Source: Malacoraja senta (Eukaryota). Taken from it: 64,000 bases of DNA. Within the stretch, counting starts at the first letter, position 1, and every line of letters starts with the position of its first letter. The stretch covers positions 8,620,001 through 8,684,000 of the forward strand of contig CM075990.1 in assembly GCA_038087875.1 (NCBI GenBank), written 5' to 3'. Under the pieces are notes generated by a model. That model was not told the origin of the DNA. It did no database searches and saw nothing but the letters and a program-made list of their open reading frames with translations. A program made the translations under genes and the position numbers. Positions 11,331 through 60,800 of the stretch are shown one piece after another.

Positions 11331-12388
11331 GATTCCTCTTGTGCTGTGCCCAGTAAATTCCTCAAAGCTGTTCCCATTGGGGTTATTTTTAGGGTGCTTG
11401 GAGCTGGAGCTGTTTTGGGGGTTTAGCAGAGGAAGAGGGCAGGGGACGGGTTGGGGATTGATATAGGGTTTTGTGATTTGGAGGACTGGGGTGAAGGTTA
11501 GCTGGGGCTGGGATATGTAGGTGAGGGGTGTTCATAATGTCATAAGTGATAAGGTCATAAGAATTAGGCCATTCGGCCCATCAAGAATACTCCGCCATTC
11601 AATCATGGCTGATCTGATCTATACCATGCAAGACCAATAGAGGCATGGAAGTACATTTATTGGGGCATGAATAAGCAATCCCATCGTTGTTCATAAGTTC
11701 ATCAGAGATAGGAGCAGAATTAGCCCATTCGGCCCATCACGTCTACTCCACCATTCAATCATGACTGATCTATCTCCCCCTGCTAACCCCATTCTCCTGC
11801 CTTCTTGCCATAACCTCTGACACCCGTACTAATCAAGAATCTATCACTGCCTTAAAAATATCCATTGACGGCCTCCACAGCCTTCTGTGGCAAAGAATAG
11901 AAAGATTAAACGAGAACTTACCGTTTGAAGTTTGATCTTTATTTTATGAGAAGTTGAAGTGAGGGAATACGTGAAGAGCCCGCCAGCCCCCATGCGCGTC
12001 AATCTTCAGGGCAACTGTATGAAACCACAGACCAGTTGCAGAACTTAAACTATAGAAAGACTAACGAGACTAGAGTTACCGGATGATCTTTTATGAGAAT
12101 CAGGGTTGGGAGTGGAGGGCACGTATTCCCTCACTTCAACTTCTCATAAAATAAAGATCAAACTTCAAACGGTAAGTTCTCGTTTAATCTTTCTATTTTA
12201 TTTCGAAGTCACGTGAGTGACTACGTGAAGCCTTCAAAGCTATGTGGTTTTATGCAGTAACCCAATCTGTGTGTGAAACACTTAAACAGATAAAACCATA
12301 AATGGTAAAAAGACATGGGTTATTAACAACATGATGCTAACTTGCATACATGGCCATTGCTCTTAATTGGACCATAGTCCCTATAGAC

Positions 12389-14674
12389 CAGTGGTTCTCA
12401 ACCTTGTTTGCCCCATGCACCTCTTTCACCATATGTCAGAATGTCATTCCCCCCCTCCTTTCCAAGATTGTCTGCCTCAAAAAGTGCATTCCAAATAATA
12501 TGCATATAATACTGAAAATCCTTTATTTTTTCCATATTAGTACATATACATTTACAATTTTACATGGATTATTTTTATAGTGGAGTTTTACAAATTAAAT
12601 GCCAATTGAAAATGTTGATGGATTTATAAAACTTGAATAAAAGTAAAATAGTTTTTTTAATATTTATAATGAATTACTTAACAGACCAAACTGAAGCATA
12701 ATGCAATAAACAAAAAGTTCAATAGAATACCAGGATATTGTAAATTTGTAATTAATTTTATTCAGATGAAGATTACAGTCAATGAGAAACCTGTGATTGT
12801 TTTTTCTTCGCCAATTCTGGGATACGCGGAGGAGTGCTTGAAAGGGCACAACGCAGGTCATTTTCTACCTCTAATCTACTACGTTGCTTTGTTTTAATTT
12901 GCAACAGAGTTGAAAAGCCTGACTCACAAAGATATGTCGACACAAACGGAAGCAATGCACGGATAGCTCTTTCTGCCACTTTTGGGTAGGAATCGCACAT
13001 CAAGGGCCAAAATTCTGTGATTGATTTCTCATCGAACATATCTCTTGCTCCCGAATCAGTTTTCAGCTCCAGAAATTCGTCTTGACAATCATCAGGAACT
13101 TTTTCAACTGACAATTTGAATGGATTTCGCACTAAATCCAACTCATCATCACTGAGTTCAGGAAAATATCGGCTGAATTCATTTTCCAGTGTTGTCAAAT
13201 GCTGCAAAATTTCATTTTTTGCAAATTGTGGAAGCACCTTGTCTTCACCACCAACAACAAGAACGGATGACATTTTCTCAAACATTGCAACATTTTTTAT
13301 ATTGACCTTTCTCTTCCAATTTTCCAGCTTGCTCATGAAAGCTTTCAAGGCATCCATGAATTTTATGATGTTTGTATTCCTTCCTTGCATCTGAAGATTC
13401 AGTTTATTCAGCTGCTCAAAAATATCAACCAAATAGGCAAGGCGCATGATCCATTCCTCATCATCCAGCCAGGCAAAAAATTCCATCTTACCCTGAACTT
13501 CAAAAAATAATTTGAGCTCATCTCTAGTCTAACCTCAAATATTCGCTCAGTTACATTTCCTCTTGACAGCCATCGAACATTTGTGTGGAAAAGAAGCAAA
13601 TGATGGGCTGCATCCATGTCGGTACATAACTGCTTGAAAAGTCGTGAGTTGAGAGCTCCTCCTTTGACAAAATTCACAATTTGAATTGTTTGATCCAAAA
13701 CCTTCCCTAGCGGAGCTGGAAGTGTTTTTGAGGCCAGTGCCTGACGATGGATCATACAATGAATGCCTTTCACTTTTGGAGCTTGCTTTTTCACACAAAC
13801 TTGAAATCCTGATTTTGTCCCCATAATAGCTGGTGCTCCATCTGTACAGCACCCACAGATATTATCCCACAAAAGATTTTCTGATTCAAAGAAAGATGAA
13901 ACCTTTTCCAAAATATTCGAGGCCTTGGTAGTTGTTCAAGAGGAGAACAAAAGAGAAACTCCTCTTTAAATGAACCTGTGAACATACCTTGCTAACACCA
14001 TCAACTGGGAACACGATGCCACATCAGTCGATTCATCAAGTTGAATTGAAAATAAGCCAAATGCTGAAGACTTGATCTCCTGCACAACTTGATCCTTGAT
14101 GTCAATGGCCATATCGCTGATCCTCCTTTGAACAGTACTGTTTGATAGTGGAACCGCTGCAAGTTTTTTCTCCAATCCATTTCCCAACACAATTTCCACC
14201 ATTTTGAGAGAGCAAGGTTTGATCAAATATTCCCCAAATTGTATGTGGTTTTTTCTGCTTTGCTATCTCCAGTGCTACGACATAAGAAGCTTCAGTAACC
14301 TTTTGGTTTGTTTCTGGTGGGGGTACTCGTGACAGGAGGCTAGGTCTAGGACTCTAAGCAAAGCGTAAGCTTTCGTAAGGGTACTTGCAGACGGACCACT
14401 CGGTGGCGCCTATGTCTTTCCTTTGTGGCAGCCCTGTCTATGGGTAATCTATTTTGATCCTTACGGTTCAGGAGCTTGTGGTGAACGGTTTGATAGGCTG
14501 CTTGCAGCAGGTAACCGATGCATACGGAATTTTGTGCCGCCCTGAGGAGCTCAAAGGCAATAAAAAGATCAACATTGTAACAGTTTGAGTTTGCTAATCT
14601 GTGGTCCCAATTCCCCCCCCTGAAAACCTGAAATCCCCCCCTAGGGGGAATTCCCCCCCTGGTTGAGACCCCTG
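12389..14674 (-). mobile_element. hAT DNA transposon, Buster/Charlie group
   Basis: TIRs CAGTGGTTCTCAACC (12389) and GGTTGAGACCCCTG (14661-14674); 8-bp TSD ctatagac/ctttagac with central TA (Buster nnnTAnnn target). Confidence 0.92.
12779..14290 (-). pseudogene. Frameshifted Buster/Charlie (ZBED5/SCAND3-like) hAT transposase
   Basis: Consecutive ORF pieces carry FSIQLDESTD, CTDGAPA, HCMIHRQALA, VRWLSRG and STYLCESGFS...RSRLEVENDLRCALS (DDE and dimerisation motifs); several frameshifts; no N-terminal BED finger seen. Confidence 0.9.
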
Positions 14675-16539
14675 CTTTAGACAATAACTCATGCAACCCT
14701 GTTCAGAATTCTATCTGCAAATATCCAGACATATTCAACCAAATTTTATAACTTCTGAACACGCAATATGTAAGCCTCTTGCTGTATGATGAAAGGGAAA
14801 TATCCATTCTATTGGCTGCTAATGAGTCATCAGAAATCTCTTAAGAGAGTATTAACTAACAATGAAGAAACTATCTTTTATCTCATAGGTACCAGCAAGC
14901 TCAGTGTACCTGTATACAGAATAATACCCCCAATCTCTGATCTGGTGGGTATGCTGTTAACTCCAAATGTACGCAACCATGCCCGTTTTGCTTTATGAGA
15001 TAATTCCCATAACAAGCTACCCTAATGTCAGTTATGACCCAGACACCGCCGCGCCATGCGTCGACGTATTAACATGCATGCGGGCTGGCGGGTTCTTCAC
15101 GTAGTCACTCATGTGACTTCGAAATAAAATTCTACAGATTCACCAACCTCCGACTAAAGGAATTTCTCCTCATCTCCTTCCTAAAAGAACGTCCTTTAAT
15201 TCTCAGGCTATGACCTCTAATCCTAGACTCTCCTGCCTGGATATTTTTGGCTGGGACTGACAATCATTCTCATTGAGGAATGGAATCAGGCAGGCCTCGT
15301 GCTCATGGTGAATGCTCAGTGATCTCTGCTGGATGCCTGAGATAGCCATGTACCCTGTCAACTCAAATTGCAAGGATTACAACTAAGCATAGGTCCATGA
15401 GACCTGGGGGAGATATTATGGCCTGTAGAACGTAAGGTAAAAAGTCAAGGACAAGAAATTCCATATTAAAGCTTAATCTCTTTAATTAAGATAGTTCTGT
15501 CTTGGGGTCACTACCCGGTGGAAATTAATACATCACGCTTGTTGCCCTATACATCTGGTGAAGCGGAGCAATAAAAGACCCGGTGCACCTTTGAACCATT
15601 ATACGATCAGAACCATGCATGAAGCCCTAATCGCCTGTGATAAAGTTGTAATGTATAAGGTCAATGTGCCCACTTGTCCACTTCTCCATCAGTCCATGGC
15701 AACCGTTTAAGTTTGCCACTTACAGAAAGTTTAACGGCAGTGCAGACAAAAGCAGGGAACTACAAAAATACATTGATTGATTCGCTGAGTGAGCGAGTGA
15801 GAAAAGCTGCAGCAAATGGTTTGAACTGAGGTGTGTTTGAGATTCATTCTGGAGCAAAAGAGGATTGATCTGAGTATTGCTAAGTGCATAGCAGGGGAAG
15901 AAGCTTAGGGGTAATTGAACACAAACAAACATATATAGTGTTTAGATGCAAGAAGCAATTAAAAAAGTTAATGGATTGTCAACCTTTATAAACCAATGTT
16001 GGATCTCATCTGAAATGCAGTGCAGATTCACCAGAATGTTGGCAGGCTCTTTAAGGTGCAATGATTGAGAGAATGCATAAACTAGATTTGCATTTTCTAG
16101 AATCTAAAAGGCAAAGAGGTGATTTCATAGAGGTTTCATGATAATGGAAGCAATTTATTGCGAGGGAAAGAGAAACGTTTAATGCTAGTGTGGAGAAATC
16201 AGTCATATAGAGAAAAATAGCAAGTATTTAATTTCAAATAAGTAACTTGAATTGCAGAGTTTCTGCAAACAATGTGATGTATATGATGATAATTTTCGAA
16301 GAGGAAGGATTCCTATTCCTGTTCCTTCCTATTTGAAAATTATATTGTATATTTGCATTCTTATCAATCTCTTTTTCCCAAGTCTCGCTGTCTTTATGAA
16401 TTATTTTCTCCATTCTTTCTTTGCCTTTTTGTTAGCCCCATTCCATTTCTCTCTCTCTCTGACACGATTCTTCCTTCACTCTCTCCATCTCTTTTTCATT
16501 CTTTCACCTCTATTAATTCATGCAGTATAATGTAGATAC

Positions 16540-27299: not shown

Positions 27300-27497
27300 G
27301 AGGAACCCTTTGTCATGGTCGCTGAAAACATCTTGGGACAACCAAAGCGCTACAAAGGGTTTTCCATTGATGTCCTGGATGCCCTCGCAAAGAATCTTGG
27401 ATTTAAGTATGAGATCTATCAAGCCACGGACCAGAAATATGGTAGCCAACTTCCTAATGGGTCCTGGAATGGAATGATCGGTGAACTCATTAACAAG
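27300..27497 (+). CDS. GRID1: GluD1 exon (exon 10 equivalent), S1 ligand-binding segment
   Basis: cacag| ... |gtgagc; 198 nt, phase 0/0; [66 protein letters not shown], a GluD1-type sequence. Confidence 0.96.
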
Positions 27498-27639
27498 GTG
27501 AGCACTCCTTTATTAACTCCTCTTGAATTTAATAATTGAATTTTACTGTTCATTTTCATTGTGGTCTGAGAATTTGATGAAACTCATGGACAACCCTAGG
27601 TTTACCATGCTGATATGGGCAAATTATCTGGTCTGGGAC

Positions 27640-31200: not shown

Positions 31201-31705
31201 GGAATTGCTTTCGTCAGAGGCTGGTGAATCTGTGGAATTCATTGCCACAGACGGCTGTGGAGGCCAAGCCAATGGATATTTTTAAGGAGGGGATTGACGG
31301 ATTCTTCATTAGTAAAGGAGTCAGGGGTTATGGGGCAAAGGCAGGAGAATGGGGTTGAGAGGGAAAGATAGATCAGCTATGATTGAATGGCGGAGTAGAC
31401 TTGATGGGTCGAATGGCCTATTTCTACTCCTAGATTGAATGAACATGAATTTGCATTGATGTTCACTGTTGCTGAGGTTAGTGTTGTGGAGTGTTCAAAG
31501 CCTGATGGTTTGTGGGAAAAAGTTATTCTTTAACCCTTCCCACAGGGGAGGAACTACCCTTCCCACAAGGTTCAAGTTTTCTCTTTAGCTCCTGCACCTT
31601 TTTCCCAGTAGTAGGAATGAAATCAAATGGCCGGGATTCTGTGAGTCTTTGATGATATTGGCTGAGAAGAAGAGAGAGGTGGTGTTGAAGGAGAGAATTA
31701 GAAGC

Positions 31706-32270
31706 TCACATGTTCAGTAGAATTAGGCCATTCAGCCTATCGAGTCTACTCCGCCATTCAATCATGGCTGATCTCTGCCCCCTAATCCCATTTTCCTGCC
31801 TTCTCCCCATAACTCTTGACACCCTTCTAATCAAGAATTTGTCTATCTTTGCCTTAAAAAATATCCACTGATGGCCTTCACAGCCCTCTGTGGCAATGAG
31901 CTCCACAGATTAACTACCCTCTGACTAAAGAAGTTCCCCCTGATCTCCTTTTTAACATAACACCCTTTAATTCTGAGGCTGTGACCTCTGGTCCTAGACT
32001 CTCCCACCAGTGGAAACATCCTTTCCACATCCACTCTACGCCTTTCATTATTCTGTCGGTTTCAATGAGGTCCCCCTCAACCTTCTAAACTCCAGCGAGT
32101 AGAGGCCCAGTGATGTCAAGTGCTCATCATATGCTAACCCACTCATTCCTGGGATCATTCTTAAAAACCTCCTCTGGAACCTCTCCAAATCCAGCACACA
32201 CTTCCCCAGATATGGGGCCCAGAATTGCTCACAGTACTCCAAATGCATACTGACCAGCGCCTTAGAGATC
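31706..32270 (-). mobile_element. CR1-clade LINE 3' fragment
   Basis: HLEYCEQFWAPY, LYSLEFRRLRG and ESRTRGHSLRI motifs. A similar fragment lies at ~60200-60640. Confidence 0.8.
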
Positions 32271-34292
32271 CTCCGCATTACTCAGCTTGGCACCTTGGCA
32301 ATGGATTACATGAGTGCCAATGAAGTAGCAATTATTATCAAGGATAATGCAGGACCTGGTCATTGAATAGGAGTCAAGTCAAGAGTGTTTTATTGTCATA
32401 TGTCCCAGATAGATTGATGAAATTCTTACTTGCCAATAAACCCAAATGAACCAGAAGACAAGGACTTGCAGGATTGAAGAGAGAGGGAAGCAGTGAGGCC
32501 AGGGAGCGAGCTAAAAACTAGGGGAAGAAATTCAGACCCACACAAAGGGCAACTTCCAACTGCTTCCAAATTAAAAGTGGCAGAAGTATAATTGTATCAA
32601 AGTGGATTTATGCTTTCATTACAAGTGACTGCAAAACCATTATTTAATTAATAGTTTCAGGTGATATTTAATTCACAACGATAAAGCTTGAATGCTTTCC
32701 AATTACTTTATCAAAATGACTGGTTTTAGATCTTGTCAGCATTTGTTTATTTAATTACATGCTTTCTTATGTGCCAGGCAGTTTGATGTTATTTGCCTCT
32801 CCCAGTGGCAACATCATCAGCATTTATTCCAGTTATTCCTTCATTCCCAGATTAATGTTGGCAAGTTCGTCCTTGGCTTAAACAACTCTAGGCTTAAAGA
32901 CCAGCATCACACACGCAGCGTAGGTGGGTCCATGAATGTACCAGTGTATCAATGGAGTTCACGGCAAGGACATAATCCAGGAGCAGTGTCAGAGCACTCT
33001 TCAGGAGAGTTTTATTCCTTCATGTATCCCAGTCACAAAACTATCCATGAGATTACTGCAGATACAAGAAACTGCAGATGCCGGTTTACAAGAAAGGACA
33101 CAAAAAATAAATAGTTTCTATGTTTCTATGACACAAAGTGCTGGAGTGACTCAATGGGTCAGGCAGCATCCCTGGAGAACATTGATAGGTGATGTTTCAG
33201 GTCGGGACCGTTCTTCAAACTGATTGTGGTGGGTGGGGGGAGAGAGGGTAGGAGAAAGCTGGATGGAGGAAGGGAAAGGCAGAGCGTGACAGGTAACAGG
33301 TGAACACAGGTGGGGGGGGGTGGGGGGGGTGGGGGGTGGGGGTTGATAGACAGATGATTGGACACAAAGGCCAGAGATGAAATTACAGAAAGTGTGAGAC
33401 AAATGGATTGAAGAACTGTGAAAGGTTGAGAGCAAAGGGGAGGGGAGAGATAGATGCAAGTCCATGCAGGGCACAGGGGAGGCGAGGAGAAGGGGGGGGG
33501 TGTGGGGGGAGAAAGGGGTGTTTTGTGGGGAGGGATGTTTTGTTAGAGGCTACCTAAAATTGGAGAATTGAATTTAATGAGATTATTGTGTTACAATCAC
33601 TTCAAATGAAATTGTACACCAGTTTTGAAATTATATATATCTATCCACAGTAAAGGGACATAATGAAGACTGGTGGCTGCTCATTCAGTCAGGAATTTTA
33701 GGTGAAATTTCAACCATTGGGAATTTGGCTCAATATTTTTACCACAGATTATGTGCTGTAATCTGAGAGTGAGGTTTGAATTGCAAACTTTGGACGAGGT
33801 GAATGAACCATGTGGAACTGTATAACATAAAGGTAAAGACGTCAGCAATGATTGAATGGCAGAGTAGACTTGATGGGCCAATTGGCCTAATTCTTCTCCT
33901 ATCACTTATGAATTGATGAAGACATAGCCGGCTCAGCTGCTTGGCAAGGTAATTGAGGAAAGGTCCTTTCCTTCAATGAGAAATTCAGACCATCAATGAA
34001 CTTGAACAAACAAGCTAATTCCCGGAAATACTGCGATGTAAATAATTGTGATAATGTGGATGGTCGGCAACTAACCCTGAGGATCATAGACAGTTAAGAT
34101 TGTAAATAGCAATTAATGTGTTAGAAGGGAGAAAATTGAGGGATATAAAAGAAGAAAGGGCAATTGCAATCAAGGAACCAAGCTATAATGGCCGAGTGAG
34201 TGCAGGTAGTCAAGCTGAATGGTGAGACCTGGGCTTCTGATGCTAAAGTCCTGATATCAGGATAATAATTTTGCCTGTCTTCTTGTCCACAG

Positions 34293-34623
34293 AAAGCAGA
34301 CTTAGCTGTGTCAGCAATAACCATCACTCCGGAGAGAGAGAGTGTTGTGGACTTCAGCAAGCGCTACATGGATTATTCAATTGGCATCCTCGTGAAGAAG
34401 CCGGAAGAAAAGATCAACATCTTCTCAGTCTTTGCCCCCTTTGACCTTGCAGTGTGGGCCTGCATTGCCGCTGCCATCCCGCTGGTGGGGGTCCTGATCT
34501 TTGTTCTCAATCGGGTGCAGTTGGTCCGAACGCAGACTCCAACGCACTCTCAGAGTCCGGCCTCCGCCTCCAACACTCTGCATACCGCCATCTGGCTGGT
34601 CTACGGGGCATTTGTTCAGCAAG
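34293..34623 (+). CDS. GRID1: GluD1 exon (exon 11 equivalent), end of S1, M1, loop, M2
   Basis: ccacag| ... |gtaact; 331 nt, phase 0/1; [29 protein letters not shown]...[27 protein letters not shown]...[13 protein letters not shown]. Confidence 0.96.
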
Positions 34624-37600
34624 GTAACTATTGAACATCTGCTCACTGTTTTGACTTGGAAATAGTGCGTGAATGTAGTGAATCCCATGGCCCATGAGCG
34701 AACAAACCAGGAACCAGTTTGTCTGCGTGAGGGAGAATTAAGAATTGCAGAGTAAGTGTCAGAGCGAGACACCCTGAGGGAAGGATGTCAAGTGAGAAGA
34801 TAGTTGTGAATGGATGGAATTCCTCTACCTTTGAGGGCTGTAGATGCTGTTTTAGGCAGATACAGCAATGAAAGCAAGAACATTCCAGGTGTTAGAATCA
34901 GACAGTAACAGGTTGAGAGATTCACACAGAGAGTGGTGAATCTCTGGAACTCTCTGCCACAGAGGGTAGTCGAGGCCAGTTCATTGGCTATATTTAAGAG
35001 GGAGTTAGATGTGGCCCTTGTGGCTAAAGGGATCAGAGGGTATGGAGAGAAGGCAGGTACGGGATACTGAGTTGGATGATCAGCCATGATCATATTGAAT
35101 GGCGGTGCAGGCTCGAAGGGCCGAATGGCCTACTCCTGCACCTAATTTCTATGTTTCTATGTTTCTATGTTTCTAATCCTGATCTAATTAAATGGCCAAA
35201 CGGGTGTGAGGAGCCAAATGTCTTCATCCAGTTCCATTTCCTTATGTTCTAAGGCATGGGAACAAGGAGAGAAAAAAAATGTTTTGAAGGAACTGTTTGA
35301 TTGATTATTAAGCAACATGCTTTATTAATTTAACATGCATAGTACAGCTAGCCCAAGGCCAACTTGGAGAACACATTGAAGATTAATGGATAAGCCTGTA
35401 AATTAAATGAAGACCCTCAGACCACAGGAATAATAGACAATCAGAAGTGTATTTGGAACAAAGAAGTTTGCATTAGTTCCAGAGCCAAGAGTTGTGTTCC
35501 TGGCTACACTCCATCAAGTATTCCCCAATTCCCAGTAACATCAGCAGTAAGTGGCAAATACCAATGTTGGCACAAAGCCATTGCAGTCCACTAAGTTCAC
35601 ATCAGGCCGGTTACCAAGTAATACAGTCGTGTCCCAAGGCATCAAACATTCTGCAGTCTGCTCTCTCAACTCCTGATTATTTTATGGAGAATGCAAGGTA
35701 TGAATTTGGAAGCTGACTGTTACTTTCAGATCCTCGCTCACACAAAACAGATCTTTTATTTAAGACTTTTGGAACAATGAGAAGCAGTTTTATTTTCAGA
35801 TATGTATGCAATGCCCTGAGAATCTTAATCCCGCCTTTGAACACTGAGCTCCCCCCGCAGATACGGAGAAATCAGGGAGCCAGGTACAAAGGCACAAAAG
35901 TGTCACAGTGCTGTTTGCAGCAACATTAAGAAGTACCGTCCAAGTGTAGCTTGGACATGTTGGCCAGTGTGAGCAGGTTGGGCCAAAGGGCCTGTTTCTA
36001 CCCTGTATCACTCTGCGACTCTTTGACTCAATAGAGTCATAGAGTGATACAGTGTGGAAACAGGCTCTTTGGCCCAACCTGCCCACACTGGCTAACATGT
36101 CCAAGCTACACTAGTCCCACCTGCCTGCTTTTGATCCATATCCCCCCAAACTTGTCACATCCATGTACCTGTCTAACTGTTTCGATGTTGGGATAGTCCC
36201 AGCCTCAACTACCTCCTCTGGCAGCTTGTTCCATACACCCTTTGTGTGAAAAAGTTACCCCTCAGATTCCTATTAAATCTTTTCACCTTCACCTTGAAAA
36301 TTGAAGGTAAACTGAGCTCATCACCTTTAACATTGACCTTTGCACTTTATTGATATTCACAAAGAAAGATACGAAACAGCGGGTTGCTAATTACCTAGTG
36401 CCCACATCACCTTGTCTTCTGTTGTCGTACAACAGGTTAGTTAGGTTGACTTTATTGATTAATGTTTCGATGGGATTCTGATCTCAAATAGAGAAAACCA
36501 GATCCCCTCTGGCGAATGGTTCAATAACCAGAAGCCAGATATTGAAAATCATTGACAAAAGAACTAAAGGAGGTCAAGAAAACTTCTTCCCCCTTAAAAA
36601 GTTGCTAAGATCTGAAACGCTCTCCTTGAGATGATGATGAAAACTGATCTATCAGTATTTTTCAAAGAAAATTGGAATTGTGACCTTTGCCACAATGCGG
36701 TGAGGAGACAGTTTTTTCTATCAGGCATCACCCAGACAACAGTGATGCCTGATGCAAGTCAATAAAAACTATTTCCATGGCTAAAAAAGACTTTTCCATG
36801 AAACTTGTGTTATAAATGAATTTTAAAAAATATATATTTTTATTTTATTAGAAGTAAGTACAATTATATGGCACCAAAGTGCCTAATATATATTGACATA
36901 ATACATTTTATGTACAGCTTCTTATTTTTTTTTATAATGAAAAAGAAAAAGAGAGAATAGATAATAGATAATAAAAGATTGAAAAACGTGTGATATATAG
37001 TGTGTGAGAAAGAAAAAAGGGTGAAAGAAGAAAAGTGAAGAAAAGAAGATAGAAAGAAAAAGAGTAGCAAGTAAAAGATTAAGGAGATCGTTATTTATAA
37101 TCTTGACCATCCCTCACCCAGTCCTGGAACAGTTAGCTTCTACAATTGTGTTGCACCATATGCTTCCAAAAAGACGACAAATGGAGACCAACTCGTTAAG
37201 AATTGGTCTGATTTATCTATTAGGAGGAATCGCATTTCCTCAAGATGTGCGGTGTCCAACATGCTTGAAATCCACATTTTAAGCGTTGGTATAAATGCAT
37301 TTGTATAAGTATTTTTTATTTTGTAGGCTAAATTTAATTGTAGCCAGGGAGTTAATCTGTGCTCCAATGAATTCTAGGTTATTCAATTACCCAACGTTGA
37401 AAGTCTCATTGATCAGAGCAGGTGGAGGATTGAGAGATGTTCAAATTCATGATCCCAAGACAGGGACAGGGAGAAGCCAACTCTAATTTACATTAATGCA
37501 TCTTATTAACATAATAGAAGTCATTTTTGCAAAAAACGAATCTGCCAGACTTTGAATTGTAAAGATAAGTCAATTTTGTAATTATCCTAATTGGTAGATG

Positions 37601-43578: not shown

Positions 43579-43778
43579 NNNNNNNNNNNNNNNNNNNNNN
43601 NNNNNNNNNNNNNNNNNNNNNNNNNNNNNNNNNNNNNNNNNNNNNNNNNNNNNNNNNNNNNNNNNNNNNNNNNNNNNNNNNNNNNNNNNNNNNNNNNNNN
43701 NNNNNNNNNNNNNNNNNNNNNNNNNNNNNNNNNNNNNNNNNNNNNNNNNNNNNNNNNNNNNNNNNNNNNNNNNNNNNN
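43579..43778. other. Assembly gap, exactly 200 N
   Basis: Run of N; a round fixed size suggests a scaffolding join of unknown length. Confidence 0.99.
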
Positions 43779-48854: not shown

Positions 48855-49696
48855 GTCTGTAAGTGACAGAAGTGAATCGACCTTGTCTGCGAACCTTGTA
48901 CAGGGGTGTGTGCTTGGAATGTTCTGAAATAATTCTCCGTTCGAGCAGTTACAGGGGAGACGCACGGTCCCTGAGATCCCTCGGATCGCGATGTCCGTGA
49001 AAATAATATTAGGCATCAGTTGCTGCATAACGGCGTGAAGTCTGGAAATACACATCGAGAGCAGTCCGACAGTGTTTCTGTCTGCTCTGTCTGTGTTCGT
49101 TCTGTGAGGAGGTGGATGATAGAGAGACTGTGATCTGGAGAGGTAACATGCTTTGTTATCTGGCAAAGTAACAGCATAAATCAGGTGGAATAGTGACAAT
49201 GTCTGTCATAAGGGAAGTTGGCTGCATCTGTCACATAGAGGGTGACTGATATTTTTAAATGAAGATATTACCAATCGGGACAGAAGTTTAGTATCAACAA
49301 CCGAGATTAGGAGAAACTTCTTTAATGTTAAATTAAACATTCATCATCTGTTTCATTATTCAGCGGGGATTTTAATAATACCTTTTTTAACTGGGTCTCG
49401 ATGCTCAGCTAGGTTGAAGTTTTGTTTCTCTAATGCTGGTGTAAGGGTTCAGGTCTAACCCCTTTGGGCTGATCGTGAAACAGAGCTCTGTTTTCAGAAG
49501 ATAATTCTCCCTCTGCGTGGAAGGAGAATTTCACACAGCTTTACCAAAGGGTACTGGGAAGTAAAAAGGATCTGACTCATTTAAGAGAGCAGACACTCCA
49601 AGTGGATTGGAAGTCAAACATTTGGAAAGGCATTTTGCGCACATTATCACCCTTCCACATGTCTACGCTCACGCAAATTTACATTTGCAGACCAAT

Positions 49697-49698
<2 letters not shown>

Positions 49699-49792
<94 letters not shown>

Positions 49793-49807
49793 ACACACAC
49801 ACACACA

Positions 49808-49878
<71 letters not shown>

Positions 49879-50027
49879 ACACACTCACACACACACACAC
49901 ACACACTCACACTCACACACACACACACTCACACACACACACACTCACACACACACTCACACACACTCACACTCACACTCACACACACTCACACACACGC
50001 ACACACACACACACACTCACACACACG

Positions 50028-50058
<31 letters not shown>

Positions 50059-50321
50059 ACCCCCACACCCACACACTCACACACACACTCACGCACACGC
50101 ACACACTCACGCACACGCACGCACACTCACGCACACTCACGTACACACGCACACACACTCACACACTCACACACACTCACACACTCACACACACACACTC
50201 ACACTCACACTCACACTCACACTCACTCACGCACACACACTCACACACACTCACACACACACACACACTCACACACACTCACACACTCACACTCACACAC
50301 ACACTCACACACACACACACT

Positions 50322-50352
<31 letters not shown>

Positions 50353-50410
50353 ACACTCACACACACACTCACACACACACACACACTCACACACTCACAC
50401 ACACACACAC

Positions 50411-50444
<34 letters not shown>

Positions 50445-50515
50445 ACACACACACACACCCACACACACACTGACACACTCACACTCACACACACACACAC
50501 ACTCACACACACACT

Positions 50516-50565
<50 letters not shown>

Positions 50566-50780
50566 CACACACACTCACACACATACACACACACACACAC
50601 ACTCACACACACACACACACTCACACACTCACACTCACACACACAAACACACACACACTCACTCACACACACACACACACTCGCACACACACGCACACAC
50701 ACGCACTCACACGCACACATGCACACACGCACACACGCACTCACGCACACACACTCACACACTCGCACACACTCGCACAC

Positions 50781-50862
<82 letters not shown>

Positions 50863-50925
50863 CTTAGCCTGCATGTGCTTGCATATATACACACTGATAT
50901 TTATACACCTCTTATACAATAAAAC

Positions 50926-51016
<91 letters not shown>

Positions 51017-57850: not shown

Positions 57851-60800
57851 AATATAGTATTAACTATGTTTTTACATTTCCTGTTTTTGGGACTGCATGA
57901 CAGGCTAATTGTACAATCCCCTCTCCTATTTTCTTCCATTTTATCTATTCTAACTCACCTTATCCTCTTCACATTCACAATAATACTTTATTAGCCAAGT
58001 ATGTTTTGCAACATATGAGGAATTTCATTTGCCAAGTCAGTCATACAAATAAAAAGCAATGGAACACACAAAACACATTTTAACATGAACATCCACCACA
58101 GTGACTCCTCCACATTCCTCACTGTGATGGAAAGTGAAAAAAAGTACAAATCTCTTCCCTTCTATGCTCTCCCGCGATCAGGGGCCTCGAGCCCTCCGTT
58201 GACGGGATGATCTTGACTCCTGTAGCCGGCGGCGTTTGGACCCTCCGCATCGGAGCGATCAGCTCCCGCATCAGGGGAATGTCAGATCCCCCGCGTCAGC
58301 GATCGGACCCCGGGTCGGGACTGGTCAAGCCTCTACATCGTAGAGCTTCCCGTCTTGGCCTCCCCCAACACTGTGAGCTCTTGATGGTAAGTCCGCAGGC
58401 CACGGTAGGAGTGACCAGCGATCCCTGCACATTAACACTATCTTATACACACTAGGGACAATTTACATATACAAGGCAATTCACCCACAAACCTGTACGT
58501 CTTTGGAGTGTGGGAGGAAACTGAAGATCTCGGAGAAAACAGACGCGGTCACGGGGAGAACCTACAAACTCCGTACAGACAACACCCGTAGTCAGAATTG
58601 AACCCGGGTCTCCAGCACTGCAAGCGCTGTAAAACAGCAACTCTACCGCTGCCCCACCAGGCCGCCCTCTTGCTAATCCCAATTATGGATTAATGGGCAG
58701 AGTTTTGGGAGGGGAATAAGAGACAGGAACTTCTGGGAAATTGGATTGGTATCTGATGTCCAGGATTATGGAGTCAAATGAAGACAAGCGTTTAACCTTT
58801 AAAATCTTGTAATGTGCGTGACTCTTTCACAAATACAACAGCTTTTGGGAGACAAATCAGACTGCAAATGACAGATTTTATGTGTGATCACAGATGGGCA
58901 GGTGGCAGATCATACAGGCATTTTGGAATGGTTATTACCTCATGATTATGCAAATAGTTTGCCATCCAGTGCCAAGTCATGTTTCAGCCATGGAAGAATC
59001 AGAATTTATTGTTTGCATGTGAGGTCCAATGTGTAGAAATTCCTATACTTATATGCTCACCGCCCAAACCATGACACAAATGATATGGATACAGAGAGTT
59101 GTGAGTCTGTGGAATTCTCAGCCACAGAGGGCGGTGGAGGCCGGTTCTCTTGACACTTTCAAGAGAGAGTTTGATAGGGCTCTTAAAGATAGCGGAGTCA
59201 GGGGATATGGGGAGAAGGCAGGAACGGGGTACTGATTGGGGATGATCAGCCATGATCACATTGAATGTCGGTGCTGGCTCGAAGGGCCGAATGGCCTACT
59301 CCTGCACCTATTGTCTATTGTCTAACTTGCATCCCAGTGTCCAATCCAGCAATAGCTAACATACCACCACATTCACTTTGGGGGGAAAAAGGGTTCTTAT
59401 GGATGGGATCAAATATATAAAATCACATCTATTTACTGCAGTGATGTTGAGTCATACGCAACCTGCAATTAGCTGATGGAAATTCACAAATGTACAAAAT
59501 TACAAGAGGTTTTAATATCAAGACTAGTGTTCAATTACTCAAAGATTTGTGTATGGTCCAATTAGTTTAGACTTGATTTGGCATAATACCATGCTGCCCA
59601 TTATGTCCACGCTGACCATCGAACACCCGTTCATATTCGTTCTGTGTTATCCCACTTCCACATCCATTCCCGTCAAGTTTGGGGCAATGTTATTTTTACA
59701 GTGGACAATTAACCTACAAACCCGCATGTCTTTGGGATGTGGGAGGAAGCCGGAGTACCCAGAGGAAGCCCATCGGGTTACCGGGAGAACGTGCAAACTC
59801 CACACAGACACACAGTGCCCAAAGTCAGTATCAAAGCCAGATCTCTAGCATTGTGGAGCAGCAGTTCCAACAGATGCGCCACTGTGCTGCCCATATTATT
59901 CCAACTTAACCAACCATCATTCCAGAAAGAAATCTTAGAAAGCAAAGTATACCAATGAGGCCAAGGCAAAATATTGCAGGCACAGAAGACTTTGGAAAAG
60001 GAACAATGAAATTCTCACCAAAATGTCAATAAAACATTTTTTATTCTTGACATCCTTAAAATATTCAGCAAGTTAAAGGCGACATCTGTGAAAAGGGAGA
60101 AACAGATTTAATGTTTCAAGTCACTGCCCTTATATTTGATCTGGATCATTTTGGATTTGCTATGATGGGAATGGAAAAGAGTTAGTAAAGGGTTTGCATT
60201 TATAAGTATTAGTAGCAGAATTATGCCATTCGGCCAATTAGTCTACTCCACCATTTAATCATAGCTGACCTATCTTACCTCTCCTGCCATTCTCCTGCCT
60301 TCTCCCCATAACACCTGACACCCGTACTAATCAAGAACCTATTAATCTCCATCTTAAAAAAAATATCCATTGACTTGGCCTCCACAGTCTTCTGTGGCAA
60401 TGAATTCCACAGATTCACCACCCTCTGACTAAAGAAATTCCTCCTCATCCCCTTTCTTCAGGTCTGTCCTTTTATTCTGAGGCAGTCGCCTCTGGTCCTT
60501 GACTCTCCCACTTGTGGAAACATCCTCTCCACATCCACTCTATCCAGGCCTTTCATATTTGTTAAGTTTCAATGAGGTCTCCCCCTCGTCCTAAACTCCA
60601 GCGAGTACAGGCCCAGTGCTGTCAAAGGATCCTCATATGTTAGGCTTGTTTTTATGACCTCAGGTTATCTTGTAGCAACTTACAGTCGGTGAAGTGCTTC
60701 CAAGTATAACCAATGCTGTATCCTTGGGATACAACGCAGCTAATGTACGCTTAACCAGGTTCTGAAGTGATACTTAGAAAAGTAACTGGTTAACCTGTTT

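What the first reader, a model, noticed from the sequence alone, without database searches (positions are those of the whole stretch)
11896..15130. Miniature non-coding DIRS-type element with a near-perfect circle-junction template (ICR)
Seen: 12120-12197 is an exact 78-bp reverse complement of the left end, and 12195-12230 is a 35/36 reverse complement of the right end. The two overlap in ATT, so this internal segment spells the junction of a circularised element. Short ITRs (26/28) sit inside the ends. The host CR1 is interrupted exactly at AAT, and this trinucleotide is present at both borders. Established: DIRS1-type retrotransposons have ITRs plus an ICR and integrate a circular intermediate by tyrosine recombinase at short A/T trinucleotides. 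Inference: without the hAT, the element is only ~0.95 kb with no gag, RT or YR ORF (perhaps a YR C-terminal remnant, IFADRILNRVA*, near 14690-14725 on the minus strand). It would be a non-autonomous mini-DIRS mobilised in trans, a poorly catalogued class.
Basis: partly seen in the sequence, partly recalled or inferred. Interest (0 to 1): 0.72.

Follow-up and report, generated by a model that had tools for sequence, protein, structure and literature searches.

The report
Miniature non-autonomous DIRS retrotransposon
A DIRS-type jumping gene has lost about 4 kb of its genes but kept intact the end signals needed for copying, and related genomes hold many look-alike gene-dead copies, so it likely spreads on enzymes borrowed from full-length relatives, a step that laboratory tests had left unresolved.

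Summary
11896-15130 is a DIRS1-like element on the minus strand, with ATT ends, ITRs, a 45-bp right extension and an ICR matching the ends at 78/78 and 35/36. It sits at an AAT in a CR1 LINE. Two complete 5.3-5.5-kb elements found with its terminal 21-mer share this anatomy. Without the nested hAT it measures 941 bp. Correction: it is not purely non-coding. A decayed recombinase C-half lies at 15035-14692 (57 of 120 YR proteins hit). About 3.8-4.0 kb is missing right after the 5' ITR, away from the hAT. In three related organisms both arms are covered at several hundred times flank depth or more, and paralogous contigs share the shortened, stop-ridden YR layout. So a gene-dead form was amplified. 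Not shown: that other copies share the 5' deletion or run on across the hAT site; no such joint is among 15 of 434 listed. No partner was identified. Non-autonomous YR retroelements are known (TOC1, SIRE). Ten literature searches found no ITR/ICR-type mini; Repbase and Dfam were unavailable. New variant of a known kind; interest 0.42.

The parts
11896..15130 (-). Whole DIRS1-like insertion, 941 bp without the hAT and one TSD copy
   Evidence: empty-site joint 11895>15128
15095..15130 (-). 5' terminus, begins with ATT; complementary to lICR
   Evidence: 35/36; same 36-bp length in L001 and L003
15068..15130 (-). 5' (left) ITR, 63 bp
   Evidence: 75% complementary to 11941-12003; 16 mismatches listed
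15036..15067 (-). CpG-rich 5' leader; inferred site of the 3.8-4.0-kb deletion (gag, RT/RH/MT, YR N-half)
   Evidence: 5' end to LxKQ codon: 131 nt here, 3964 in L001, 4097 in L003
14910..15035 (-). Best-preserved tyrosine recombinase remnant
   Evidence: tblastn best E 3.6e-8; 57 of 120 YR proteins at E<1e-3 on the minus strand, 0 on plus; profile score 99 against a control maximum of 48
14692..14909 (-). Decayed rest of the YR C-half: stops in all three frames, about 105 nt short; alignment not unique
   Evidence: LIKQ to end 308 nt against 138-139 codons in L001 and L003
14675..14682 (.). Right 8-bp hAT target copy
   Evidence: 7 of 8 identical to 12381-12388
12389..14674 (-). Nested, broken hAT DNA transposon in the DIRS 3' untranslated part
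   Evidence: Dimer_Tnp_hAT E 1.4e-6; TIRs; lacks 704 bp at 14315/14316 relative to contigs of X1 and X4
12381..12388 (.). Left 8-bp hAT target copy
12231..12380 (-). DIRS 3' untranslated region before the ICR
   Evidence: YR stop to ICR motif is about 204 bp without the hAT, against 232-714 in 8 relatives; high depth
12195..12230 (-). Left ICR (template for the 5' end)
12120..12197 (-). [quoted passage not shown]
12004..12119 (-). Spacer between ICR and 3' ITR
   Evidence: ICR motif to 3' motif 269 bp here, 248-305 in 7 relatives
11941..12003 (-). 3' (right) ITR
11896..11940 (-). Right extension rE, 45 bp, ends with ATT
   Evidence: outside the ITR but inside the rICR match; published range 9-75 bp
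11708..11898 (+). Host CR1 fragment, left of the insertion
   Evidence: about 82% to the copies near 31237-31432 and 60210-60405
15128..15233 (+). Host CR1 fragment, right of the insertion
   Evidence: about 80% to copies at 31902-32004 and 60403-60508

Best explanation
This is an internally deleted DIRS1-like retrotransposon that keeps both ITRs, the ICR and ATT ends but no working gene, and it likely belongs to a non-autonomous family copied in trans by full-length DIRS elements. Shown: the anatomy, the insertion at AAT in a CR1, the 3.8-4.0-kb loss after the 5' ITR, the dead YR C-half, and paralogues in related organisms with the same shortened YR region. Inferred from the published DIRS cycle: the 5' ITR drives an RNA that lacks the extreme ends; a partner's RT makes single-stranded cDNA; the ends are rebuilt on the ICR; the joined ends form the ATT junction; and a partner's YR recombines it with a genomic AAT, leaving one trinucleotide at each border. 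The hAT likely jumped into the 3' untranslated part afterwards and did not cause the miniaturisation.
For: Anatomy and borders. Complete relatives L001 (5264 bp) and L003 (5512 bp) have the same ends and gag-like, RT and YR ORFs. Amplification: interior bins 14750-14993 carry 608-1719 times the flank-bin depth in 3 of 3 DNA runs, and the lowest listed remnant site (14843) still 106-141 times (summed contig depth, not a copy number). Shared decay: X4 records 20-22 tile 14677-14968 with 3, 1 and 2 gap letters and 7-12% mismatches at single-copy depth, across a stretch about 105 nt shorter than intact YR. Records 20 and 21 overlap and differ, so there are at least two other loci. Age: ICR/end pairs differ at 1 of 114, while at least 11 of 193 remnant sites differ from nearly all depth in the relatives; with the inner ITR included it is 6 of 141, P about 0.004 under decay in place at 5.7%. 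L002 shows decay in place hitting both YR and ICR (77/85). The ICR is essential and DIRS-1 RT acts in trans (PMC7192593).
Against: No listed contig bridges 15038-15068, so sharing of the big deletion is not shown. No joint 12388>14683 is among the 15 of 434 joints displayed, despite high depth on both sides, and X4 record 17 stops matching at 12352 with 142 letters left over. The hAT flanks differ at 1 of 8 bases. The inner ITR has 5 mismatches in 27 pairs, against 24/24 and 25/25 in L001 and L003, and the Cappello model rebuilds that part each cycle, which argues for some ageing in place; at 3-4% divergence the age test is not significant. 0 of 9 metagenome loci are minis. No second copy lies in the 64-kb window, and the source genome was not available. 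No close autonomous partner was found. A truncated DIRS-1 was reverse transcribed but gave no selectable transposition in the laboratory.
Confidence: 0.66

Rival explanations
1. The gene-dead family is real but longer (several kb), and the 4-kb deletion happened once, at this locus, after insertion.
For: The 5' junction is not bridged by any listed contig; X1 record 7 and X4 record 23 end at 15038 and 15034. Inner ITR 22/27 suggests time in place. 0 of 9 retrieved loci are minis.
Against: The ends and ICR are almost untouched (1 of 114). Depth on the remnant matches depth on the ICR-to-ITR spacer, as expected of one family. Contig ends in repeats are uninformative. Even this reading needs a YR supplied in trans.
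Confidence: 0.2
2. The family is short but larger than 941 bp: this copy lost extra 3' untranslated sequence at the hAT site, for example by a transposase-driven adjacent deletion.
For: The 8-bp flanks differ at one base. No hAT-free joint is displayed, and X4 record 17 diverges after 12352. The YR-stop-to-ICR spacing, 204, is below the 232-714 range.
Against: 7 of 8 identity is what a once-mutated duplication gives. The spacing is only 28 bp below the shortest relative. 419 joints were hidden.
Confidence: 0.08
3. An ordinary full-length DIRS copy decayed in place; gene conversion kept ICR and ends alike, and the depth in relatives comes from full-length copies.
For: The 78-bp arms are only 146 bp apart. 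The 36-bp arm alone does not reject ageing (P 0.08). Depth dips at 14843-14856.
Against: Paralogous contigs cross the shortened, stop-ridden stretch with 1-3 gap letters, which intact YR copies could not do. L002, with similar spacing, was not homogenised (77/85).
Confidence: 0.06

Closest known systems
DIRS1-like retrotransposons with ATT ends (mollusc and cnidarian type, e.g. LgDIRS1, AcaDIRS1, NveDIRS6b; PMC3266345 Table 3, seen as a passage)
   Same: ITRs, right extension of 45 bp (theirs 48-49), two ICRs of 36 and 78 bp (theirs 39-86, 45-88, 40-82) overlapping on AAT, ATT at the start.
   Different: 941 bp against a stated range of 3974-6283 bp (the table also lists 3793); no gag, RT/RH or MT; YR dead. 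Their search tool required RT, MT and YR, so it could not see such an element.
Full-length elements L001 and L003
   Same: Identical 21-mer near the 3' end (selected by the search), 36-bp lICR, ATT ends, 68-69% identity over 310-343 bp of ICR and 3' end.
   Different: They carry open gag-like, RT and YR frames and perfect inner ITRs; too distant to be the partner.
TOC1 (Chlamydomonas) and SIRE (Trypanosoma cruzi)
   Same: Non-autonomous YR retroelements; SIRE is a short derivative of VIPER.
   Different: SIRE derives from a split-direct-repeat element and its mobility is debated. TOC1 is also of split-repeat type (recalled, not from a call). Neither has ITRs with an ICR.
Engineered trDIRS-1 (PMC7192593)
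   Same: DIRS with ITRs and ICR but ORF1 and half of ORF2/ORF3 removed; reverse transcribed in trans.
   Different: Laboratory construct; a full cycle could not be scored. The element here would be a natural case.
TRIMs and MITEs (recalled)
   Same: Terminal signals kept, genes lost, mobilised in trans.
   Different: Those use integrase or transposase and make target-site duplications; this has an ICR and a shared trinucleotide.

Membership tests
DIRS1-like superfamily | Inverted terminal repeats, imperfect, with a right extension | tested here: met
   63-bp ITR at 75%, 45-bp rE
DIRS1-like superfamily | ICR near the 3' end; left half complementary to the 5' start, right half to the 3' end, overlapping on 3 bp | tested here: met
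   35/36 and 78/78, overlap 12195-12197; definition
DIRS1-like superfamily | NTT trinucleotide at both ends, matching the target; no longer duplication | tested here: met
   AAT on + at both borders; empty-site joint with 3 shared letters
DIRS1-like superfamily | Sequence descent from YR-encoding elements | tested here: met
   65-75% identity of ICR and 3' end to 9 of 9 YR-bearing loci; YR remnant
Autonomous DIRS1-like element | Intact gag, RT/RH/MT and YR ORFs; 4-6 kb | tested here: not met
   No RT or gag profile hit in the window; stops in all three frames of the remnant; 941 bp
Non-autonomous miniature family | Gene-dead form present at several loci | tested here: met
   X4 records 20-22 and high depth in 3 of 3 DNA runs; relatives only, not the source genome
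Non-autonomous miniature family | Copies share the large 5' deletion and a size near 1 kb | tested here: inconclusive
   No listed contig bridges 15038-15068 or the hAT site; most table rows were hidden
Non-autonomous miniature family | Autonomous partner with the same ends in the same genome | not testable with these tools
   No genome held; the little-skate YR P0136 is not especially close
Non-autonomous miniature family | Not already catalogued in Repbase or Dfam | not testable with these tools
   Neither library is offered
Ngaro / PAT / VIPER | Split direct repeats | tested here: not met
   Terminal repeats are inverted
MITE or other DDE transposon | Matching TIRs at the very ends and a target-site duplication, no ICR | tested here: not met
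   The outer 45 bp of one end has no partner at the other end; ICR present

The most novel reading that the evidence does not exclude
A roughly 1-kb, high-copy, long-lived miniature DIRS family, the ITR/ICR counterpart of TRIMs, spread through several related vertebrate genomes and not yet described. It would be natural proof that the whole DIRS cycle, including ICR-templated end repair and YR integration, runs in trans, and it would bound the cis needs to about 95 bp at the 5' end plus the ICR-to-3'-end block.
Probability: 0.4. Interest if true: 0.62.

Novelty: new variant of a known kind. Interest (0 to 1): 0.42.

Why it matters
Whether all DIRS proteins can mobilise a truncated element was left open by the one experimental study (PMC7192593). 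A natural miniature family would answer that and define the minimal cis sequence for a reporter. It would also mean that domain-based DIRS surveys miss an abundant class, which structure-based tools could misfile as MITEs or unknown repeats. Conceptually it is expected, since most transposon orders have non-autonomous derivatives, so the gain is a filled gap rather than a new mechanism.

Tried and rejected
No whole genome is held, so the direct copy count could not be run. Self-BLAST found no second copy in the window. Rfam: 0 matches. The 21-mer scan gave 0 loci in viral contigs and 0 in GTDB genomes. Searches with the remnant itself found nothing: 45-aa piece, 4 candidates, none at E<=10; 112-aa read-through, 0 hits; Pfam on the 110-aa read-through, 0 families. 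The little-skate YR P0136 scored 52 against shuffles 32.5+-5 (maximum 45.5), lower than the five other proteins aligned, so it is not claimed as the partner. An RT-like match at 15027-15074 lies on the wrong strand with E 0.15 and was treated as chance. My interim idea that the catalytic H-x-x-R is cleanly deleted was dropped: a second alignment places an H-x-x-R near 14790-14775, so only the net shortening and the stops are claimed. The hAT as cause of the large deletion was rejected because YR homology places that deletion 5' of 15035. RNA run X24 (about 6 in 100 read) has reads on both arms in both orientations, mostly on ICR and ends; it cannot show expression of the mini. Bhikhari as a precedent was dropped: PMC9341512 calls it an ERV. 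Three look-ups of earlier scan findings returned nothing.
Full report
OBSERVATION. The repeat finder and a direct comparison give 78 of 78 complementary bases for 11896-11973 against 12120-12197, and 35 of 36 for 12195-12230 against 15095-15130. The mismatch is at 15112. The two internal halves overlap on three bases, so the internal segment spells the joined ends. A 63-bp imperfect ITR (11941-12003 / 15068-15130, 16 mismatches) contains the 26/28 core at 11968-11995. The flanks are the two halves of a CR1 3' fragment, collinear with other copies in the window. In public runs the empty site appears as the joint 11895>15128 with 3 letters fitting either side, in 2, 3 and 6 contigs of X1, X2 and X4 and in 102 reads of X24. 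A broken hAT occupies 12389-14674 between 8-mers that differ at one base. The rest is 941 bp.

SETTING. The window holds exons of an ionotropic glutamate receptor gene (Pfam Lig_chan) and many CR1 copies. The host is probably a cartilaginous fish; that rests on my recall of such CR1 ends and was not tested. No genome was held.

IDENTITY. By the published definition the ICR lies at the 3' end, with its left half complementary to the element's start (PMC8969392, PMC3266345; passages). The element therefore reads on the minus strand, starting and ending with ATT, the commonest DIRS1-like terminus. An exact 21-mer from its 3' end retrieved 9 metagenome loci. All 9 carry a YR gene: 8 open frames of 327-347 codons and one frameshifted. 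Pfam was run on two of these YRs and one RT and confirmed them. Two of the 9 are complete, L001 (5264 bp) and L003 (5512 bp), with the same 36-bp lICR and ATT ends; the other 7 lack a 5' end on their contigs. In 7 of the 8 loci that have both parts, rICR and 3' end match perfectly over 78-85 bp although the loci differ from each other; the eighth, L002, is decayed. None of the 9 is a mini.

WHAT WAS LOST. Profiles from these loci found no RT or gag remnant in the window but one YR hit. Of 120 further YR proteins, 57 hit 15035-14910 on the minus strand at E<1e-3 and none hit the plus strand; best E 3.6e-8 for the 456-bp subject. A profile from 195 proteins scored 99 there, against at most 47 in 60 shuffles and 48 in 56 other window segments. 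The distance from the 5' end to the conserved LxKQ codon is 131 nt, against 3964 and 4097 in L001 and L003, so 3.8-4.0 kb is missing just inside the 5' ITR. Downstream, all three frames have stops, and the stretch to the likely C-terminus is 308 nt against 138-139 codons. The hAT sits in the 3' untranslated part: stop-to-ICR spacing is about 204 bp without it, against 232-714.

FAMILY OR ACCIDENT. Of 24 runs listed I laid 4: contigs of organisms A, B and C and raw RNA reads of C. Interior bins 14750-14993 carry 608-1719 times the depth of the flank bin, and the lowest listed site 106-141 times. The tool warns that this is not a copy number; it does show an abundant repeat. More telling, X4 records 20, 21 and 22 cover 14677-14826, 14700-14833 and 14799-14968 with 3, 1 and 2 gap letters and 7-12% mismatches at single-copy depth. 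Intact YR copies could not align that way across a region about 105 nt short, and records 20 and 21 overlap yet differ. X4's flank shows two listed differences in 93 bp, so these are likely paralogues. A gene-dead layout was therefore amplified. Against the stronger claim of a 941-bp family: no listed record bridges 15038-15068; no joint 12388>14683 is among the 15 of 434 shown; and record 17 leaves 142 letters unmatched after 12352.

AGE. ICR and ends differ at 1 of 114 pairs, while 11 sites in 14766-14958 differ from nearly all depth in the relatives (from 40 of 319 rows shown). The inner ITR disagrees: 5 of 27 mismatches, 3 at likely CpG sites, against perfect matches in L001 and L003. Pooled, 6 of 141 is about 2% per copy; P is about 0.004 if the copy had aged 5.7% in place, but not significant at 3-4%. 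The hAT differs from X2 contigs at 8 of 1590 letters. This favours copying after much of the decay, without proving it.

MECHANISM. From PMC7192593 (abstract, passages, section 21): the transcript lacks the ends, the ICR is essential, the cDNA is single-stranded and mostly linear, RT acts in trans on a truncated element, and a full cycle of that element could not be scored. The circle junction and trinucleotide recombination are model steps. Applied here, every enzymatic step is inferred. The sequence shows only that the cis signals are intact, that the genes are not, and that the border is what YR recombination at AAT predicts. No partner was identified: searches with the remnant failed, and a little-skate YR (P0136) is not notably close.

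NOVELTY. Ten searches found non-autonomous YR retroelements only as TOC1 (PMC9940879, passage) and SIRE (PMC6681497, passages). Passages of PMC8498967, PMC5633606, PMC9210276, bioRxiv 2021.08.05.455354, PMC3783388 and PMC9341512 describe no ITR/ICR-type mini; I read no whole text and no supplement. The library lacks most subscription papers, and Repbase and Dfam could not be checked; such a family may already be entered there.

VERDICT. A real, internally deleted DIRS1-like element, very likely from an amplified gene-dead lineage (about 0.85-0.9) and likely from a family near 1 kb (about 0.66-0.74). New variant of a known kind; interest 0.42.

Noticed in passing
window 12389-14674: The nested hAT is young and low-copy in relatives: 8 mismatches in 1590 letters against X2 contigs, depth about 175 in X1 and X4 against 38-49 on the flank. 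The window's copy lacks 704 bp at 14315/14316, and X4 holds a shorter derivative (joint 12543>14370). Its central-TA target fits Buster/Charlie-type hATs (recalled). A recent invasion is possible.
   Followed up: partly
window 12120-12309 and 11896-11973: Depth on ICR and ends is roughly ten times that of the interior in X1, X2 and X4, which suggests more abundant DIRS families sharing these ends; possible partners. Double placement inflates this.
   Followed up: no
window 11915-11922 (minus) and 12171-12178 (plus): A splice-donor-like GGTAAGT lies about 25 bp from the 3' end here and in the retrieved loci. The search pattern contained it, so its conservation is selected. Its ICR copy lies on the host gene's sense strand.
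   Followed up: no
window about 27390-27510 and 34269-34631 (+): Exons of an ionotropic glutamate receptor gene (Pfam Lig_chan on the second; delta type by recall). The element may be intronic and antisense to it.
   Followed up: partly
L002 700-2324: A DIRS copy decayed in place: frameshifted YR and rICR match of only 77/85; a natural control for ageing.
   Followed up: yes
L003 191-247 / 305-361: A 57-bp inverted repeat (95%) just upstream of the element's 5' end, in the flank.
   Followed up: no
P0191, P0196: DIRS-like YR proteins carry bacterial MAG labels (Sedimenticola, Thiodiazotropha) on 4-5-kb contigs; likely host DNA binned into symbiont MAGs.
   Followed up: no
window 43579-43778; 49500-51000: A 200-N assembly gap, and a CA-type microsatellite of over 1 kb.
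   Followed up: no
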